A DNA stretch of 64,000 bases from the human T2T-CHM13v2.0 reference genome, Homo sapiens: assembly GCF_009914755.1 (NCBI RefSeq), contig NC_060940.1; one strand, given 5' to 3'. Positions 2,689 to 22,002 of this stretch are shown in pieces; the first letter of the stretch is position 1, and every line of letters starts with the position of its first letter. The notes below the pieces were generated by a model. It was given only the letters and a program-made list of their open reading frames with translations, did not search any database and was not told the DNA's origin. A program made the translations under genes and the position numbers.

Positions 2689-3977
2689 GTATATTGTTAT
2701 CATTGTTCTATTTGATTATTAGTTATTGTTGTTAAGCTCAGACTGTGCCTAAATCTTACATTAAACTTTATCACAGATTTATATGTATAGAAACAACATT
2801 GCATATATAGGGTTTGGTACTATGCAAACTCTCAGGAATTCATTGTGGGTCTTGGAACATATCCCCCATGGATAAAGGGAGACAACTGTACTTATTTTGT
2901 TGTCATACAACATAGCTTCTCCAGCTCTTCAGTTAAAATGCTTTAGTTTAGAATAAAATGCCCTATCACAAGGAAGCTAGGTCTATGGGCATCATACTAT
3001 GTTTTATGGCAAAACATAGAAAATAGACCAGAGACAAAGATTCTTGCAAATCACTTTCAGCTGCCAGTGGAGAAGAGTTCAAGACAAATCAATGTACTCC
3101 TTCTCACTAATCCTCTTCTGGGAAAGAGGCTAGTTAAATTTACTTAGTTCTAGCTAATTTATCTGCCCTATGTGTGATATAAATAAGGTTCAAATTTACT
3201 TACCATTTTACCTCCCATGGAAAGAACTACTGAAAAGATCACTTCCTTAAGAGTTTGCCCACTCTGAACCCTACCACTTATTCAGAGAGAAGCTTAAGAA
3301 GGAACAGTGCGGAAGGGGTGCCAAATGTCCAGGGAGTACTATCTGATATAAAAAATATATAAAAACAAAATTATCAACTCACTCAAGCTACCCGAATTTG
3401 CCAAGAGTTATCACTGTGTCTAGTGAAAGAAAAAAAATTCTCTCTCACTTCATGTAAACCAAAACATTTTGATTCTCTTGGCATTTCTCATAACAGAGAA
3501 TCTGGATGTAGATGAGCCATGCTATAATAATATGGACTGTATTCAAACTAATTCCCGAAAGGAAGGGAATCAGTGACAAACATATTTGTTGACCTATGGT
3601 ATTCACTACCTGGTCTTATATTCCATTGCAAGGGATGTATGAAAGACTTTGTGATTTTAGTTTTATAAAGTACAACCTCTTGAGATTGTCCCTTCCTACT
3701 GCTAATGAGTCTATCAGGACCCACCTCATGGAGCAAAATGGTCCAGTTAGTGCTGTGTAGCACTGTGTAGTACCACGTGATGCCATTTTCCCCAACCCTC
3801 CCCATTATGTGGCAAGTGTCTATAGAAATCACACTTTCTCAGCATGTAAAGCATACGTCATCAGATCCTATGCTTATGAATAAAAGGAAAACTAAAGCAA
3901 GGACAGAGAACATCTTAAATGACTACATTCAATTACCACAGAACTTTAATTTTTTTAATATTCAAAATGATACCCAC

Positions 3978-4092
3978 TGATATAGTTTGGCTCTGTGTCC
4001 CCACCCAAATCTCATCTTGAATTGTACTCCCATAATCCCCATGTGTTGTGGGAGGGACCTGGTGAGAGATAATTGAATTATGGGGGCGGTTT
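3978..4092 (+). mobile_element. THE1 LTR 5' fragment
   Basis: Same 5' sequence as the THE1 at 1368, truncated after ~115 bp. Confidence 0.8.
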
Positions 4093-4216
4093 GTAAGTCT
4101 GATGAACTCTGTGGGAGATATTAAAAATGCGGAAGGAGGAGGCAGCCAAGATGGCCGAATAGGAACAGCTACGGTCTACAGCTCCCAGCGTGAGCGACGC
4201 AGAAGACGGGTGATTT

Positions 4217-4588
4217 CTACATTTCCAGCTGAGGTACCGGGTTCATCTCACTAGAGAGTGCCAAACAGTGGGCGCAGGACAGCAGGTGCAGCGCACCGAA
4301 CACGAGCCGAAGCAGGGCGAGGCATTGCCTCACCCGGGAAGCACAAGGGGTCAGGGAGTTCCCTTTCCTAGTCAAAGAAAAGGGTGACAGACGGCACCTG
4401 GAAAATCGGGTCACTCCCACACTAATACTCCGCTTTTCCGACGGGCTTAAAAAACGGTGCACCAGGAGATTATATCCTGCACCTGGCTCGGAAGGTCCTA
4501 CGCCCACGGAGTCTCGCTGATTGCTAGCACAGCAGTCTGAGATCAAACTGCAAGGTGGCAGCGAGGCTGGGGGAGGGGTGCCCGCCAT
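4217..4588 (-). CDS. L1 antisense ORF0-like reading frame (123 aa, C-terminally extended)
   Basis: MAGTPPPASLPPCSLISDCCASNQRDSVGVGPSEPG... matches L1 ORF0; open to the stop at 4217; expression not shown. Confidence 0.6.
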   Translation of the reverse strand: MAGTPPPASLPPCSLISDCCASNQRDSVGVGPSEPGAGYNLLVHRFLSPSEKRSISVGVTRFSRCRLSPFSLTRKGNSLTPCASRVRQCLALLRLVFGALHLLSCAHCLALSSEMNPVPQLEM

Positions 4589-5171
4589 TGCCCAGGCTTG
4601 AGTAGGTAAACAAAGCAGCCTGGAAGCTGGAACTGGGTGGAGCCCACCACAGCTCAAGGAGGCCTGCCTGCCTCTGTAGGCTCCACCTCTGAGGGCACAG
4701 CACAGACAAACAAAAAGACAGCAGTAACCTCTGCAGACTTTAATGTCCCTGTCTGACAGCTTTGAAGAGAGCAGTGGTTCTCCCAGCACGCAGCTGGAGA
4801 TCTGAGAACGGGCAGACTGCCTCCTCAAGTGGGTCCCTGAGCCCTGACCCCTGAGCAGCCTAACTGGGAGGCACCACCCAGTAGGGGCGGACTGACACCT
4901 CACACGGCCAGGTACTCCTCTGAGACAAAACTTCCAGAGGAATGATCAGACAGCATCATTCGCAGTTCACGAAAATACGCTGTTCTCCAGCCACTGCTGC
5001 TGATACACAGGCAAACAGGGTCTGGAGTGGACCTCTAGCAAACTCCAACAGACCTGCAGCTGAGGGTCCTGTCTGTTAGAAGGAAAACTAACAAACAGAA
5101 AGGACATCCACACCAAAAATCCATCTGTACATCACCATCATCAAAGACCAAAAGTAGATAAAACCACAAAG

Positions 5172-6188
5172 ATGGGGAAAAACCAGAGCAGAAAAACTGG
5201 AAACTCTAAAAAGGAGAGCGCCTCTCCTCCTCCAAAGGAACGCAGTTCCTCACCAGCAATGGAACAAAGCTAGACGGAGAATGACTTTGACGAGTTGAGA
5301 GAAGAAGTCTTCAGACGATCAAACTACTCCGAGCTACAGGAGGAAATTCAAACCAAAGGCAAAGAAGTTAAAAACTTTGAAAAAAATTTAGACGAATGTA
5401 TAACTAGAATACCCAATACAGAGAAGTGCTTAAAGGAGCTGATGGAGCTGAAAGCCAAGGCTCAAGAACTACGTGAAGAATGCACAAGCCTCAGGAGCCG
5501 ATCCCATCAACTGGAAGAAAGGGTATCAGTGATGGAAGATGAAATGAATGAAATGAAGGGAGAAGGGAAGTTTAGAGAAAAAAGAATAAAAAGAAACAAA
5601 CAAAGCCTCCAAGAAATATGGGACTATGTGAAAAGACCAAATCTACGTCTGATTGGTGTACCTGAAAGTGACGGGGAGAATGGAACCAAGTTGGAAAACA
5701 CTCTGCACGATATTATCCAGGAGAACTTCCCCAATCTAGGAAGGCAGGCCAACATTCAGATTCAGGAAATACAGAGAACGCCACAAAGATACTCCTCGAG
5801 AAGAGCAACTCCAAGACACATAATTGTCAGATTCACCAAAGTTGTAATGAAGGAAAAAATGTTAAGGGCAGCCAGAGAGAAAGGTCAGGTTACCCACAAA
5901 GGGAAGCCCATCAGACTAACAGCTGATCTCTCGGCAGAAACTCTACAAGCCAGAAGAGAGTGGGGGCCAATATTCAACATTCTTAAAGAAAAGAATTTTC
6001 ATCCTAGAATTTCATATCCAGCCAAACTAAGCTTCATAAGTGAAGGAGAAATAAAATACTTTACAGACAAGCAAATGCTGAGAGATTTTGTCACCACCAG
6101 GTCTGCCCTAAAAGAGCTCCTGAAGGAAGCACTAAACATGGAAAGGAACAACTGGTACCAGCCACTGCAGAATCATGTCAAATTGTAA
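5172..6188 (+). pseudogene. L1 ORF1p, disrupted
   Basis: ATGGGGAAA start; in-frame TAG at 5271-5273 (codon 34, normally Trp); remainder open (RPNLRLIGVPE, YPAKLSF). Confidence 0.95.
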
Positions 6189-6251
6189 AGACCATCGAGG
6201 CTAGGAAGAAACTTCATCAACTAACGAGCAAAATAACCAGCTAACATCATA

Positions 6252-10079
<3,828 letters not shown>

Positions 10080-10344
10080 AACAATGAGAACACATGGACA
10101 CAGGAAGGGGAACATCACACTCTGGGGACTGTTGTGGGGTGGGGGGAGGGGGAGAGATAGCATTAGGAGATATACCTAATGCTAAATGACGAGTTAATGG
10201 GTGCAGCACACCAGCATGGCACATGTATACATATGTAACTAACCTGCTCATTGTGCACATGTACCCTAAAACTTAAAGTATAATAATAATAAAATAAAAT
10301 AAAATAAAATAAAATAAAATAAAATAAAATAAAATAAACTACAA

Positions 10345-11480
10345 AACATATCTCTCCATTTATTTAGGTTTTTCTTTAAATTTTGTCAAAATTGTTTTGT
10401 AGTTTTCTGTTTAAAAATTATAAACTTGTTTCACTAGTTACTCCTAAATATTTACTTTTTTGTACCATTGCAAATCATATCTTTATTTTCATTTTATAAT
10501 TGTTTGTGGCAAAATACAGAAATACAATTTTTGAACATAGGATTATAATTTTAAATTGATGATGTATCAAGCAGCTCTGATAAATTTGCTCATTAACTGA
10601 AATACAATAATATAATAACCAGTGTATAGATTCTTATTTTTTCTACCTATTAATTATATCGTCAATGAGTAATGGAAATTCTATTTCTTCCCTTTTAATC
10701 CTTATCTTTCTTATTCTGTTTTGCCTGTGGTACTGGCTAGGACTTCCAGTACACTGTTGAACAGAAGTGATGATAGTAGACATTCTTGTCTCATTCCTAA
10801 TCTCTGTGAGCAAGAATTTAAAATTTTCCTTTAAACATGATTGTTGTAGGTTTCTGTGAGTACCCCTTAACATGAAAGGGTGTTGAATTTGATCAAATAT
10901 GTTTTCTACATCTATTAAGATGATTTTTCTTCCTCCTTTATTTTGTAATATGAAGAATTACATTTTTATTTTTGTTAATTAATACCAATATTGCACTCCT
11001 AAAAATAATTCAACTTGTGTTATATCTTTCCTTTTTATATATCACTAGATTTCATTTGATCGTATTTTATTAAAGCTTTTCCCATTTGTGGTCATGATGG
11101 GGACTGAATTATAATTTGGTGCCCATGTAAGGTTTTTATATGAAGATTACATAGGCCTCATAAAATGAGGTTGGAAATGTTCTTCCTGCTTCTAAACTCT
11201 CAAAGAGTTTATGTAAGAGTCATACTATATCCTTCTTAAATTTTAAAATAACTTACCAACGAAGCCATCTGAACCTGGAGTTACTCTTCAGATTTTCTAA
11301 TTATTCTTCAGCTACTTTTGGTAAGTTGAGTTTTTCAAGGAATTCATTCTTTTCATTAAAATTTTCAAATGCATTGGTATAAAAGTATAAGATCCTCTTA
11401 GCATCTTTTTTATGTCTGTGTACTCTGTAGTGATGTCCCTTTTTTCATTCCTGATATTGGTAACATTTCTTATATGTAGA
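10345..11480 (-). mobile_element. Old L1M ORF2 fragments
   Basis: Degenerate antisense L1 sequence (gacttccagtacactgttgaa, aagccatctgaacctggag); boundaries approximate. Confidence 0.7.
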
Positions 11481-11809
11481 TCTCCTAGTAGTGAACTTTC
11501 TGTTTTTTTCTTAAAATATTATTTCATTTTTAAAAGACATTTTAATATAGAATACAATGTTCACAGCCTTTTAAAAAAGTTTAGTATTCAATGTTATTCC
11601 ATTGTCTCTGGCATTCATCAGAGATGGACCACAGCATTCTGAAAGACAGGTGCATTTCACCAGCACTGCAACCCCTGAACAGTAATAACCAATAAATTAT
11701 TGACTCATGAACTAAGCTAGGCTCCTCCAATGATAATTTTGTAAACATTTTTTGTAAAGAAAGCTACAAATATTTATTATTATTATTATTATCATCATCA
11801 TTATTATTT

Positions 11810-12082
11810 AGAGATGGGATCTCGCTCTGTCACACAGGCTGGAGTGCAGCAGCGTGATCACAGCTCACTGTGGCCTTGAACTCCTGGGCTCAAGCGATCC
11901 TCCTGTCTTCCTGAGTAGCTGGGACTACAGTCATGTGCCATCACACCTGGCTTATTTTTAAATTTTTTGTAGGGACAGGGTCTTGCCATGTTGCCCAGGC
12001 TGGTCTCAAATTCCTGGCCTCAAACGATCCTCCCCCCATGGCCTCCCAAAGTGCTTATAGGCATAAGCCACCACACCCAGCC
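11810..12082 (-). mobile_element. AluJ
   Basis: Antisense Alu with an (ATT/ATC)n tail. Confidence 0.85.
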
Positions 12083-12419
12083 ATCAATATTTTTTTGCTC
12101 CTTAGAAAATAATGTATAACTTTTCACTGGTGGCTTTTAGGATTTTCTCTTTGTAGTTGGTTTTCAGCCATTTTACTCTCATGTTCTTAAATGTGGTTTT
12201 CTTTGTGTCTATCCTATGGCCCCACAAATCCTGACAGGCTTGGTTACTGCCCATTGCCCTTAAACAGTTGTGGTGATTGCTTATGTTGCTTAGTTTTTAC
12301 TAGATTTTATAGTTATTCTATAAAATACAAGTTACTTCATCATATACAGATAGAACCAGGTGAACCAGCTTTACGGGTAATTCTAGTTACCCTGCTCTGG
12401 TTAAAAATTACTGTTTAGG

Positions 12420-12985
12420 TTATTAATTTAAACAAAGCTATAGCAATCAAAAGTATGTGATATTGATATAAGGATAGAATAAATATAAAAGGAATAGAAT
12501 TGAGAGTCCAGAAATAAACCCATACATCTATGATCAATTGATTTTCTCTAAGGGTACCAAAATCATTCAGTGGAGAAAGAACAATGTTTTCAACAACTGA
12601 TGCTAGGACAACTGAATATCTGGACCAAAAAAGATAAAAATGGACTGTCATCTCACACCACATACAAAAATTAACTCTAATTTATTAAGGATTCAAATAA
12701 AAGAGCTAAAACCGAAGAAAACTTTGGTGTAAACCTTCAGGAGTTTGGATTATCTTTATGATATCAAAAGAAGCAACAAAATAAAATATAAATTGAACTT
12801 TACCAAATTCAAAATCATTTATGCTTCAAAGGACATCAGGAAAGAAAAAAGACAACTAACAAAATGTGAAAAAATATTTGCAATTATCTACCTGATAAAG
12901 GTCTAATATCCAGAATATATGAATAACTCTTACAACTCAACAATAAAAAGCCTGATTTTAAAATGGGCAAAGGATTTGAATATAC
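12420..12985 (+). mobile_element. Old L1M ORF2 3' fragment
   Basis: aaagctatagcaatcaaaagtatgtgatattg...aaatgggcaaaggatttgaat. Confidence 0.75.
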
Positions 12986-14313
12986 ATGTCTCCAGAAAAT
13001 CATTGAGGAGAAAGTATGTATCCCAAAACAAGTTTTTAATGCAGACAAAAGTGCCCTATTCTGGAAAATAATGCCAAAAAGGACATTTATTAGTGGGGAA
13101 GAGAAGCAAGCACCAGGATTTAAGAAGGGTAAGCTAGCTCTAATGTTTTGTGCAAATGCAGTTAGGTTTAAAATCACGACTGCCCTTATCCATAAAACTG
13201 CTAACCCTCAAGCCTTGAAGGGAAAAGATAAACTCCTGCTGGCATCTTTTGATTGTATAACAAGAAGGTTTGGAAAACCAGAATTCTTTTTCTAGATTGG
13301 TTCCATCAATGCTTTGTCCCTGAAGCAAGGAAGAGACTGCCTTTTAAAGTTCTTTTGATATTGGACAATGCCTCTGGCCACCCAAACTCTATGAATTCAA
13401 CACCAAAGGCATTGAAGTGGTCTACTTGGCTCCAAATATGATATCAGCCTCTACATTAGGGGGTCATAAGAACCTTGAAAGGCTCATTACACATGGTACT
13501 CTATGGAAAGAATTGTCAACACTGTGGAAGAAAACGCTGACAGAGAGAACATGAAAGGCTTCAGTAGGATGCCACATCAAGCCCCAAACAATAAACTCCT
13601 GCTGGAGAAAGCTGTGTCCAGATGTCGTGCATGACTGCACAGGATTTATAACAGAGCTAAACAAGGAGATCATGAAAGAGATTGTGGAAATGGCAAGAAA
13701 AAAAATGGTGAAGGGTGAAAGGTTTCAAGATATGACTATTGGGAGAAATTCAAGAGTTAATATACACCACACCAGAGGAATTAACTGAAGATGACTTGAT
13801 AGGGATGAATGCTTCCAAACCAGTGCCAGATGATAAGGAAGAAGACGTAGAAGAAGCAATGCAAGGAAACAAATTGACATTAGACAATCTGGTAGAAGAG
13901 TTCCAATTATTCATGACTGCTTTGACTTATTTTATGACATGGACCCTTCTATGATATGGACACTGAAACTAAAGCAAACAGTGAAAGATTGGTATCATAG
14001 AGAAATATTCTTAGAGAAATGAAAAGCCAATAACGTCAGACAAGAAATTATGATGTATTTCCGTAAAGTTAAACCAAGTGTCCTTGCCTCTTCTGCCTCC
14101 TCTTCCACCGCCTCCACCTCCTCCATCTCTCCCACTCCTGAGATAGCAAAACCAACTCCTCTTCCTACTCTACTTGAAGATGATGAGAATGAGGATGATG
14201 ATCCACTTACACTTAATGAAGTCAACATATTCTATCTTCCTTATGATTTTATTAACAATATTTTCTTTTCTCTAGCTGTGTTATTGTAAGAAACAGTATT
14301 ATATAAATATGCC
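12986..14313 (+). mobile_element. Tigger2 fragment with transposase remnants, lacking the 3' TIR
   Basis: QVFNADKSALFWKIMPKRTFI and VLLILDNASGH (pogo/Tigger DDE-family motifs); 3' part matches the Tigger2a at 21650-21830 but stops at the A tail. Confidence 0.85.
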
Positions 14314-14349
14314 ATAAAAAAATAAAAATAAAAATAAAAATGCGGAAGG

Positions 14350-14458
14350 CTATGCACATCAGGGGGTCGTGGGGTATATGAGAGATCTCTGTACCTTACT
14401 CTCAATTTGCTGTGAATCTAAAACTATGTTAAATAATACAGTTATTAATTTAAAAAAA
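14350..14458 (+). mobile_element. L1MC/MD-type 3' end (right half of the L1PA target site)
   Basis: ctatgcacatcaggggg...ggtatatgagagatctctgtacc...tgctgtgaatctaaaact continues the sequence at 4105-4136. Confidence 0.7.
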
Positions 14459-15029
14459 GATATTTCCTGAACTTGCTATTATCCTATATTATAAAAAGAT
14501 ATAGTCAGCTTGAAAATTGCAAATAAAGATCAAAGTAATATAATATGAATATTATCTCCCAAATTGAAATATACAAAAACACATAAAGCAAATAATTTTA
14601 ATCGCATACTTGGGTAAAAAAATGGATAAAAATGATTGAATATTTTATCTTATTTCATAATTACAAGCAGGGATTTAACACAACATGAATCAAAACTGGT
14701 CCATCCATATAATTAGGATAAATGATAATTTTTACTTTAATTTTGAATCAAAAATTATTATGCTTATTTTATCCAACAATTTTACTGAAAGTTTAATGAG
14801 ATAAGGACAGATCATAATGACCTAATATTGCCATAGTAACTTTTGTACAAATATCTGCCAACTCTTCACCAAATGTCAAAACTGTAAGCAGCATTGCAAC
14901 TTAATATGAATAATGCAACTGAAACCAGTACCATGTTATGTTATATCATATTATTTGCTGTTAAAATAAAATTTTAAGACAACACCAAAAATTATGCCAG
15001 GGCCATAGCTACCACACAGCAAAGATTTT

Positions 15030-15577
15030 ATACAGTAGGCATGAGATGAGACCACCATCCTTAGAAAGGCCTTATTACAAGAATGGCCCTGGGCTGGTGT
15101 TGGGACCTTGGATTTGGGAGGGCTCTCACCATTCCCTTACTGAGAAGAGTGGCTCGCTGTGCCTAAACTGTTTGTGCAAATGTAGCTTACTCTGAACAGC
15201 TGATTTTCTTCTGGGAGTCTAGAATTTTGGTATATGTGAGGGAGAGGATGCCTATGTGACTAGCCTCCATCAAAAACATGCATACTGGGACTTCAGTGAG
15301 AATCTGCTACTGGTAGACAACTTGTGTTGTCAGAATCTGAGGCTGGGGGAATTAAGCACATTCTGGTAACTGCACAGGAGAAGATTCCTAGAGCTTTGTG
15401 TTTGCTTCCCTCCAGACTTCACCACGTGCACCTTTTCCCTTTGCAAATTTTTCTCTGTACCATTTTATTGTATTAAATGTAATAAATCAAAGCCCTGAGT
15501 ATGAATATTTGCTAAGAGCTGTGAGTCCTTCTCAGTTAATCACCAAACCTGAGGTGGTCTTGGGAGTCTCTGAAACA
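15030..15577 (+). mobile_element. ERVL LTR (MER68/MER77-like)
   Basis: gtgcctaaactgtttgtgcaaa...ctgggagtctagaattttgg...gtggtcttgggagtctctgaaaca; left boundary approximate. Confidence 0.65.
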
Positions 15578-15937
15578 ACTGCATCATAGAAAATTTTTAT
15601 TATTTGATGTGTTATATGTAACTACAATCAGAAGGTTGCTTTGCAGAGCATCTGTCCCTAATGTTTTTTTTATTTTATTTTTTCATATTTGCCTTTCAGA
15701 TTCCTATATTTCTATAAACATTTGATGAAAGGTATCAACAAATACATAAAACAATGATGGAAGAAAGTAATGTGAAACAAGCAACAATCCTATTTTGACC
15801 AGAATAAATTTAGAAACCTTGATGATTCACAATATGTTCTACAATACAAAAGTTTCTAGAAAAAGTGTTTAAAAGATCATCGTAATTTTCTCTAACTCAG
15901 CAGGGCTTCATTCATTTTTATAATGATCATGCATCTG

Positions 15938-16110
15938 GTTGGGTGCAGTGGCACATGCCTGTAGTCCTAGCTGCTCCTTTGGCTGAGGCAGAAGGACTGC
16001 TTGAGGCCAGGAATTCAAGCCACAGTCATTCTTGTCAATAGCTACTGCATGCCAGCCTGGGTAACATAGTGAGACCCCATCTCTTTAAAAAAACTAAATA
16101 AATAAATAAA
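15938..16110 (+). mobile_element. FAM (fossil Alu monomer)
   Basis: Monomeric Alu with the tgtcaatagctactgca segment typical of FAM, plus A tail. Confidence 0.7.
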
Positions 16111-21584: not shown

Positions 21585-22002
21585 CAGTTGACCTTTGAAC
21601 AACAGGAGTTTAACCTGCAGCAGTCTAATTATATGCAGATTTTCTTCCACCTCTGCCACCTGAGACAGCAAGACCAATCTCCTTCTTCCTCCTTCTCCTC
21701 AGCCTACTCAACTTGGAGACCATGAGGATGACCCACTTCCACTTAATAAATAGTAAATATATTTTTATTCCTTATGATATTCTTAATAGCCATTTTTCTC
21801 TAGCTTGCTTTCTTGTAAGAATATAGTATAGTAACACACGTAACATACCAAATGTCTTAACTGTTTATGTTATGAATAAGGCTCCTGGTCAATAGTCATC
21901 TAATTCGTAGCTAATTTTGGGGGGAATCAAAAGTTACACACAGGTTTTCAGCTGCACACGGGGTCAGTACTGCTAAATCCTATGTTATTCAAAGGTCAAC
22001 TG
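21585..22002 (+). mobile_element. Tigger2a (MER28) complete non-autonomous element
   Basis: Perfect TIRs cagttgacctttgaa / ttcaaaggtcaactg with TA flanks. Confidence 0.88.

What the first reader, a model, noticed from the sequence alone, without database searches (positions are those of the whole stretch)
4123..14349. Full-length L1 with a ~4-kb 3' transduction: one 10.2-kb insertion
Seen: the 14-mer aaaaatgcggaagg directly precedes the L1 5' end (4123-4136, after TT, i.e. a TT|AAAA endonuclease site). It is absent after the L1's own (TAAAA)n tail at 10338 but recurs exactly at 14336-14349 after a second A-rich tail. Removing 4137-14349 rejoins an old L1MC/MD-type 3' end (gtgggagatattaaaaatgcggaagg|ctatgcacatc...gatctctgtacc). 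The Tigger2 at the end of the cargo stops at the tail, about 170 nt before the TIR present in the Tigger2a at 21585-22002. Established: L1 readthrough past its weak poly(A) signal mobilises 3' flanks. Inference: 10339-14313 was copied from the flank of a source L1 elsewhere. A full-length L1 plus 4 kb of cargo is unusually long, and because the cargo is all old repeats (L1M, AluJ, Tigger2) repeat annotation would hide it.
Basis: partly seen in the sequence, partly recalled or inferred. Interest (0 to 1): 0.85.

Follow-up and report, generated by a model that had tools for sequence, protein, structure and literature searches.

The report
Full-length L1 carrying 4-kb chr17 flank
A single 10.2-kb retrotransposon insertion on chromosome 16 consists of a complete but now dead L1 element plus about 4 kb of chromosome 17 sequence that it copied along, a textbook mechanism in an unusually long and well-preserved example.

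Summary
The 14-mer occurs exactly twice in the window, at 4123-4136 just before the L1 5' end and at 14336-14349 after a second A-rich tail.

The predicted donor exists. Window 10336-14318 matches the chr17 minus strand, 48285440-48284306 plus 48282554-48279711. There are 91 mismatches in 3,957 aligned bases, 2.30%. No third copy was found.

On chr17 the old repeats run through both ends of the copied block:
- An old L1 crosses its start in 33 of 38 hits.
- Tigger2 continues past the poly(A) addition point in 6 of 7 copies.

An SVA sits in the chr17 copy only.

Six old paralogous segments, at 72-79% identity, are colinear with both window flanks. They carry neither the L1 nor the cargo.

One prediction failed: this assembly has no L1PA upstream of the donor block. 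The transduction is therefore "parentless". The source L1 was most likely never fixed.

Verdict: a real L1 3' transduction, about 3.98 kb of cargo in a 10.2-kb insertion. It is a known mechanism, but the cargo is about 2.5 times the longest in one published human set. Ape orthologues could not be examined.

The parts
4123..4136 (+). 5' copy of the target-site duplication (14 bp, preceded by TT, so the target was TT|AAAAA)
   Evidence: Exact match to 14336-14349. These are the only 2 exact copies in the window, and 0 of 100 shuffles gave any.
4137..10273 (+). Full-length L1PA body, 6,137 bp, with both ORFs broken. The surviving open pieces are 248 aa (ORF1 domains), 257 aa (endonuclease) and 701 aa (reverse transcriptase).
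   Evidence: The 5' end is in register with 39 of 39 other genomic L1 5' ends at 93-94% identity. Pfam hits are Transposase_22, Tnp_22_dsRBD, Tnp_22_trimer, Exo_endo_phos and RVT_1.
10274..10338 (+). The L1's own A-rich tail, now a (TAAAA)n microsatellite; no TSD copy follows it
   Evidence: TRF: period 5, 12.8 copies. Sequence read.
10339..14318 (+). Transduced block of about 3.98 kb copied from chr17. It is a mosaic of old L1 pieces in both orientations, an Alu (about 11801-12093) and a Tigger2-like element (about 12994-14318).
   Evidence: Matches chr17(-) 48285440-48284306 and 48282554-48279711 with 91 mismatches in 3,957 aligned bases.
14302..14307 (+). Candidate poly(A) signal (variant hexamer TATAAA), 8-11 nt before the cleavage point. 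The donor has a GT-rich stretch just downstream.
   Evidence: This is inference from position; usage was not shown.
14319..14335 (+). Second, non-templated A-rich tail. The donor reads G at the first position and has no A-run.
   Evidence: Side-by-side read of the window and chr17; TRF (AAAAAT)4.
14336..14349 (+). 3' copy of the target-site duplication
4093..4122 (+). Upstream half of the interrupted old L1 3' end. It is contiguous with 14350 onward once the insert is removed.
   Evidence: Rejoined flanks align across the junction in 29 of 29 loci, reaching 12-43 bp upstream of the 14-mer. Bit scores rise against the native junction in all 6 loci printed, for example L063 from 125 to 152.

Best explanation
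This is one L1 3' transduction event.

Proposed sequence of events:
1. A full-length L1PA once sat on the minus strand of chr17, directly upstream of position 48285440.
2. It was transcribed past its own weak poly(A) signal. In today's sequence the transcript also passed 7 AATAAA and 2 ATTAAA hexamers.
3. The transcript was cleaved and polyadenylated about 4 kb downstream, inside a Tigger2, just after a TATAAA hexamer.
4. The L1 machinery nicked chr16 at TT|AAAAA and reverse-transcribed the whole transcript of about 10.2 kb without 5' truncation. This left a 14-bp target-site duplication.
5. The source L1 is absent from chr17 in this assembly. Most likely it was a polymorphic allele that was lost by drift.
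6. Later an SVA landed in the chr17 copy, and both L1 ORFs on chr16 decayed.

Shown: the TSD, the two tails, the donor locus, continuity of the donor past both block ends, and the empty paralogous sites.

Inferred: the existence and position of the source L1, use of TATAAA as the signal, and the age. The 2.30% paralogue divergence lies between the human-gorilla and human-orangutan divergences as I recall them. That gives very roughly 10-14 million years, in the L1PA3/L1PA4 era.
For: - TSD: the exact 14-mer appears only at the two outer ends, after TT, and not after the L1's own tail.
- L1: full length by 5' register with 39 of 39 genomic L1s, with the expected protein domains.
- Donor: chr17(-) matches window 10336-11471 and 11463-14318 at 96.8% and 97.2%. 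The next-best genome hits are 72-77%. Careful alignment gives 91 mismatches in 3,957 bases, 2.30%.
- Direction of copying: on chr17 an old L1 is continuous across the block start in 33 of 38 hits; 5 stop at or before it. L016 and L017 also span it. Tigger2 continues past the block end in 6 of 7 copies and in the window's own Tigger2a.
- RNA origin: the second tail is not templated in chr17.
- SVA: the 1.75-kb stretch present only in chr17 has the SVA layout, namely (CCCTCT)n, a GC-rich VNTR, a 3' part with 39 dispersed copies at 95-97% identity among the 40 scored, a poly(A) and a 9-bp TSD.
- Empty paralogous sites: L063-65 (77-80%) and L059, L057 and L039 (72-82%) are colinear with window 2757-3977 and 14335-15924. 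None has the L1 or the cargo.
- Parentless transductions are known. In dog, 17 of 18 lay away from any annotated LINE-1 (PMC7980453, passages). In human, only 3 of 6 had a reference L1 at the source (PMC4862182, passages).
Against: - No L1PA lies upstream of the donor block within the 14.5 kb examined, and the site looks like a clean empty site. The source element is therefore inferred, not seen.
- The block start on chr17 (ATTG|AAAC) is only a one-mismatch relative of the TT|AAAA nick site. Such sites are common in AT-rich DNA.
- The terminating hexamer is a weak variant. In today's sequence nine canonical hexamers were passed.
- No sibling insertion sharing the cargo was found. However, only 40 candidates are scored per search.
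- No ape or monkey orthologue could be examined.
Confidence: 0.88

Rival explanations
1. Template-switch or RNA-joining chimera. The L1 reverse transcriptase started on a polyadenylated chr17 transcript that had no L1. It copied that transcript to its 5' end at 48285440, then jumped onto the poly(A) end of a separate L1 mRNA and copied all of it.
For: The donor locus has no L1 in this assembly, and an old L1 runs unbroken across the block start. L1 chimeras with other RNAs are documented (10.1101/2025.02.02.635956, passages).
Against: Documented chimeras place the non-L1 RNA 5' of a 3' L1 part, which is the opposite order (same preprint, passages). This model needs a transcript that starts at an arbitrary point inside an old L1 with no known promoter. 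It also needs a jump exactly onto the end of an L1 tail. There are no extra bases at the tail-cargo junction. L1, tail, flank, tail, bounded by one TSD, is the defining layout of a 3' transduction.
Confidence: 0.07
2. Two separate insertions. First a 4-kb retrocopy of a chr17 transcript landed on chr16 and made the TSD. Later a full-length L1 inserted exactly between the 5' TSD copy and the retrocopy.
For: None specific. It would also yield L1, then cargo, then a tail.
Against: The L1 has no TSD of its own. The bases after its tail share nothing with the bases before its 5' end. The 14-mer is absent after the L1 tail. The second insertion would have to hit one exact phosphodiester bond.
Confidence: 0.02
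3. DNA-level duplication, either segmental duplication or repair-mediated capture, of chr17 sequence next to a pre-existing L1.
For: The chr16 region belongs to a heavily duplicated family, with many paralogous segments.
Against: The copied block ends in an A-rich tail that chr17 does not encode. The composite is bounded by a 14-bp TSD at a TT|AAAA site. The block starts exactly at the L1's tail. The paralogues of the chr16 flanks lack both parts.
Confidence: 0.01

Closest known systems
L1 3' transduction (Moran 1999; Goodier 2000; Pickeral 2000). These citations are recalled. I saw them only in reference lists, and the Pickeral and Szak papers were not held.
   Same: The layout is L1, own tail, downstream flank of a source locus, second poly(A) tail, with one TSD around the whole and a TT|AAAA target. 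The donor locus is identifiable elsewhere.
   Different: Length. The cargo is about 3.98 kb, attached to an untruncated L1. [quoted passage not shown] In colorectal cancer, 248 of 349 somatic transductions were under 100 bp, and germline partnered insertions had a median total length of 1,520 bp (PMC13009371, passages). This example is also old and fixed rather than L1HS, and its cargo is made only of old repeats.
'Parentless' 3' transductions, where the donor locus has no L1
   Same: The donor locus has no adjacent L1 in the reference. This was reported for 17 of 18 dog cases (PMC7980453, passages). It was also noted as a possibility for human polymorphic events (10.1101/2024.04.18.590093, passages).
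   Different: Those cases are young and polymorphic, so the parent may still segregate. Here the event is millions of years old, so the parent was probably lost before fixation.
L1 chimeric retrocopies (U6/L1, Alu/L1 and mRNA/L1 chimeras)
   Same: One TPRT event joins L1 and non-L1 RNA within one TSD.
   Different: In those chimeras the non-L1 part is 5' of a usually truncated L1 3' end (10.1101/2025.02.02.635956, passages). Here the L1 is complete, lies upstream and keeps its own tail.

Membership tests
L1 3' transduction | Sense-oriented L1 at the 5' side that ends in its own A-rich tail | tested here: met
   L1 at 4137-10273 with ORF1, EN and RT domains. The (TAAAA)n tail is at 10274-10338.
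L1 3' transduction | Non-L1 flank follows the tail and ends in a second poly(A) that the donor does not encode | tested here: met
   Block 10339-14318, tail 14319-14335. At that point chr17 continues with non-A sequence.
L1 3' transduction | One target-site duplication around the L1 plus flank, and none around the L1 alone | tested here: met
   The exact 14-mer occurs only at 4123-4136 and 14336-14349. No repeat of the 5' flank follows 10338.
L1 3' transduction | L1 endonuclease-type target (TT|AAAA) | tested here: met
   TT at 4121-4122 is followed by AAAAA. The consensus itself is recalled knowledge.
L1 3' transduction | A donor locus elsewhere, colinear with the flank and continuing beyond both of its ends | tested here: met
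   chr17(-) at 97.7% identity. An old L1 spans the start in 33 of 38 hits. Tigger2 runs past the end in 6 of 7 copies.
L1 3' transduction | A full-length source L1 directly upstream of the donor block | tested here: not met
   No L1PA lies within 14.5 kb upstream on the chr17 minus strand, and the sequence across the start is continuous. Published cases often lack the parent too (PMC7980453, PMC4862182), so this does not exclude membership. It does leave the source inferred.
L1 3' transduction | Poly(A) signal shortly upstream of the second tail | tested here: inconclusive
   Only the variant TATAAA at 14302-14307, 8-11 nt before cleavage, with a GT-rich stretch downstream in chr17. Usage was not shown.
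L1 3' transduction | An empty pre-insertion site | tested here: met
   Six paralogous segments are colinear with both flanks and lack the L1 and the cargo. The rejoined flanks are continuous in 29 of 29 loci. Orthologous empty sites in other primates cannot be tested with these tools.
L1 chimeric retrocopy (template switch or RNA ligation) | Non-L1 RNA lies 5' of an L1 3' part, sharing one tail | tested here: not met
   The order is reversed and there are two tails. The definition comes from 10.1101/2025.02.02.635956 (passages).

The most novel reading that the evidence does not exclude
The chr17 donor is a clean empty site. The composite may therefore not be a read-through product at all. It could be an 'L1-first' chimera, in which ORF2p copied a 4-kb polyadenylated cellular transcript and then switched onto the poly(A) end of an intact L1 mRNA and copied all 6.2 kb of it. 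That would be a chimera class with the opposite polarity to all catalogued ones. Under either reading, the insertion records one TPRT event that synthesised about 10.2 kb without truncation.
Probability: 0.07. Interest if true: 0.55.

Novelty: new member of a known kind. Interest (0 to 1): 0.3.

Why it matters
- It is a clean, fully traceable example that L1 can move about 4 kb of flanking DNA together with a complete copy of itself. This is well beyond the 50-1,600 bp seen among human-specific full-length L1s in one survey (PMC3024322, passages).
- It shows that ORF2p can complete a cDNA of about 10.2 kb in the germ line.
- It shows how transductions made only of old repeats escape repeat-based annotation. 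They may also escape detectors that search only a limited stretch of flank; that point is my inference.
- The donor-copy pair gives a dated paralogue pair, 2.30% apart, that brackets an SVA insertion on chr17.
- I see no functional consequence. The cargo is old repeats, and the insertion lies antisense in an intron of the transcribed pseudogene ANKRD26P1 (hub annotation).

Tried and rejected
- Splicing as the cause of the 1.75-kb difference between donor and copy. Rejected: the extra chr17 DNA is an SVA with its own 9-bp TSD.
- A source L1 further upstream joined by splicing. Rejected: there is no L1PA within 14.5 kb, and no AG acceptor at the block start.
- The 415-bp L1PA 3' fragment at chr17 48277630-48278043 as the source. 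Rejected: it is on the opposite strand, truncated, and downstream of the block.
- Sibling insertions sharing the cargo. None found. Each search scores only 40 candidates, so very short siblings could be missed.
- Treating the 29 loci as independent L1M copies. Corrected: searches show they are paralogous segments of one duplicated family. They count as a few independent witnesses, not 29, but they serve as empty-site paralogues.
- L1 subfamily assignment. Not achieved, because no repeat library was available. The 6,137-bp body fits the longer of the two full-length L1 size classes, which lie about 130 bp apart (PMC10883270, passage). The closest 5'UTR relatives are 93-94% identical without a large gap. 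'L1PA3/L1PA4' is therefore inference.
- Published maximum transduction length. Not found. Several key papers were not held. Supplementary tables of the papers read were not opened.
- Prior report of this locus. No paper held all of 'ANKRD26P1', 'transduction' and 'LINE-1'. This is a narrow search.
Full report
**Observation**

The 14-mer AAAAATGCGGAAGG is present exactly twice in the window, at 4123-4136 and 14336-14349. No exact match occurred in 100 dinucleotide-preserving shuffles. With up to two mismatches there are 5 matches against 0.69 expected.

The first copy follows TT and abuts an L1 5' end at 4137. That end is in register with other full-length L1s. All 39 non-self hits of the 40 scored for 4137-5100 begin at query base 1-14, at 93-94% identity.

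The L1 body is 6,137 bp. It carries ORF1, endonuclease and reverse-transcriptase domains, but only as broken pieces of 248, 257 and 701 aa. It ends in a (TAAAA)n tail at 10274-10338. No copy of the 14-mer follows this tail. A second A-rich tail precedes the second 14-mer.

**Donor**

I searched the window's own assembly with 10339-14313. Besides the self-match, this found one high-identity locus on the minus strand of chr17. Every other hit was 70-82% identical.

Local BLAST places the matches as follows:

| Window | chr17 (minus strand) | Identity |
|---|---|---|
| 10336-11471 | 48285440-48284306 | 96.8% |
| 11463-14318 | 48282554-48279711 | 97.2% |

A careful alignment gives 91 mismatches in 3,957 aligned bases (2.30%). 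Of these, 17 are in CpG context. There are 12 gap events covering 31 bases.

A separate search with the first 562 bases of the cargo again found only chr16 and chr17 at high identity. So no sibling insertion was detected among the scored candidates.

**The 1.75 kb present only on chr17**

This stretch is an SVA on the plus strand. It has these features:
- a (CCCTCT)n run and a GC-rich VNTR with 33-49-bp units;
- a 3' part with 39 dispersed copies at 95-97% identity among the 40 scored;
- a poly(A) tail and a 9-bp target-site duplication.

It therefore inserted into chr17 after the copy was made. It is not an intron that was removed from the transduced RNA.

**Direction of copying**

On chr17 the sequence is continuous through both ends of the block.
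- I used a 400-bp query centred on the block start. Of 38 old-repeat hits, 33 span the start and 5 end at or before it. The chr16 copy matches only from the start onward. Two held loci also span it.
- At the other end, 6 of 7 Tigger2-like copies stay aligned to chr17 for 80-117 bp past the point where chr16 switches to a tail. The window's own Tigger2a at 21643-21940 does the same for 95 bp.

The chr16 tail is not encoded in chr17. The last hexamer before the tail is TATAAA at 14302. Chr17 has a GT-rich stretch just downstream. In today's sequence the cargo contains 7 AATAAA and 2 ATTAAA hexamers that were passed.

**The chr16 target**

I rejoined the flanks inside a script. The rejoined sequence aligns across the junction in 29 of 29 loci. 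With the native 3' junction, the alignments of 5 of the 6 loci printed begin only inside the 14-mer; L039 ran on through A-rich sequence. Bit scores are higher with the rejoined sequence in all 6.

Those loci are not independent repeat copies. They are paralogous segments of a duplicated family. Six of them (L063-65, L059, L057, L039) are colinear with window 2757-3977 and 14335-15924 at 72-85% identity. None has the L1 or the cargo between those flanks.

These segments act as old empty-site paralogues. They speak against the cargo being ancestral at this locus. Orthologous sites in other primates could not be examined.

**What failed**

There is none within 14.5 kb on the relevant strand, and the site looks empty.

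The only young L1 piece nearby is a 415-bp 3' fragment. It lies on the other strand, downstream of the block.

The transduction is therefore 'parentless', which is a described situation:
- In dog, 17 of 18 transduced sequences mapped away from any annotated LINE-1 (PMC7980453, passages).
- In human, 3 of 6 had a reference L1 at the source (PMC4862182, passages).
- A population long-read study notes that progenitors may go undetected (10.1101/2024.04.18.590093, passages and one section).

**Mechanism and rivals**

The layout is L1, own tail, flank, non-templated tail, inside one TSD at a TT|AAAA site. This is the definition of a 3' transduction. I put that reading at 0.88, with the source L1 inferred to have been an unfixed allele.

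- Template-switch chimera (0.07). It is not excluded, because the donor is empty. However, it has the opposite polarity to catalogued chimeras (10.1101/2025.02.02.635956, passages). It also needs a transcript that starts at an arbitrary point in an old L1.
- Two sequential insertions (0.02). This fails because the L1 has no TSD of its own.
- DNA-level duplication (0.01). This fails on the non-templated tail and the TSD.

**Age**

The 2.30% divergence between copy and donor falls between the human-gorilla and human-orangutan divergences as I recall them. That gives very roughly 10-14 million years.

The 6,137-bp body fits the longer of the two full-length L1 size classes, which lie about 130 bp apart (PMC10883270, passage). 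'L1PA3/L1PA4' is an inference. No repeat library was available to confirm it.

**How unusual**

The cargo is about 3.98 kb and the insert is 10,199 bp plus the TSD. For comparison:
- Confirmed transduced flanks of full-length L1HS ranged from 50 to 1,600 bp (PMC3024322, passages).
- 248 of 349 somatic transductions were under 100 bp, and germline partnered insertions had a median total of 1,520 bp (PMC13009371, passages).

I found no published maximum, and several key papers were not held. No paper held 'ANKRD26P1', 'transduction' and 'LINE-1' together.

**Verdict**

This is a long, old, parentless example of a well-known mechanism with no visible functional consequence. It is a new member of a known kind, and interest is modest.

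Noticed in passing
L012:2556-4311 (chr17:48282556-48284311, + strand): An SVA-type retroposon sits inside the chr17 donor block and is absent from the chr16 copy. It has a (CCCTCT)n run, a VNTR, a 3' part 95-97% identical to 39 other copies among the 40 scored, a poly(A) and a 9-bp TSD. It therefore inserted after the transduction.
   Followed up: yes
L011:7630-8043 (chr17:48277630-48278043, + strand): A 415-bp 5'-truncated L1PA 3' end, 97.1% identical to window 9885-10298, lies about 1.7 kb beyond the donor block on the opposite strand. It cannot be the source.
   Followed up: partly
window 2757-3977 and 14335-16027: The flanks of the insertion belong to a widely duplicated segment family. 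Five copies on chr17 at 16.6-20.8 Mb are 78-79% identical. Many pericentromeric and acrocentric copies on chr2, 9, 13, 14, 15, 18, 20, 21 and 22 are 72-76% identical. This fits the ANKRD26-like pseudogene annotated here.
   Followed up: partly
window 3978-4092: A 115-bp fragment of a much younger, abundant repeat, 94-98% identical over 47-54 bp to 39 scored genomic copies. It replaces about 280-316 bp present in the paralogous segments. From memory it looks like the start of a THE1/MaLR LTR; this was not tested.
   Followed up: no
window 10339-14318: In today's sequence the read-through transcript passed 7 AATAAA and 2 ATTAAA hexamers, then ended after a variant TATAAA. Most of the passed hexamers lack a GT-rich stretch downstream.
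   Followed up: partly
window 10341-10360 vs chr17 48285437-48285415: A 5-bp indel lies within the first 20 bases of the cargo, where chr17 has extra bases. This is the stretch that would be the source L1's 3' TSD copy.
   Followed up: no
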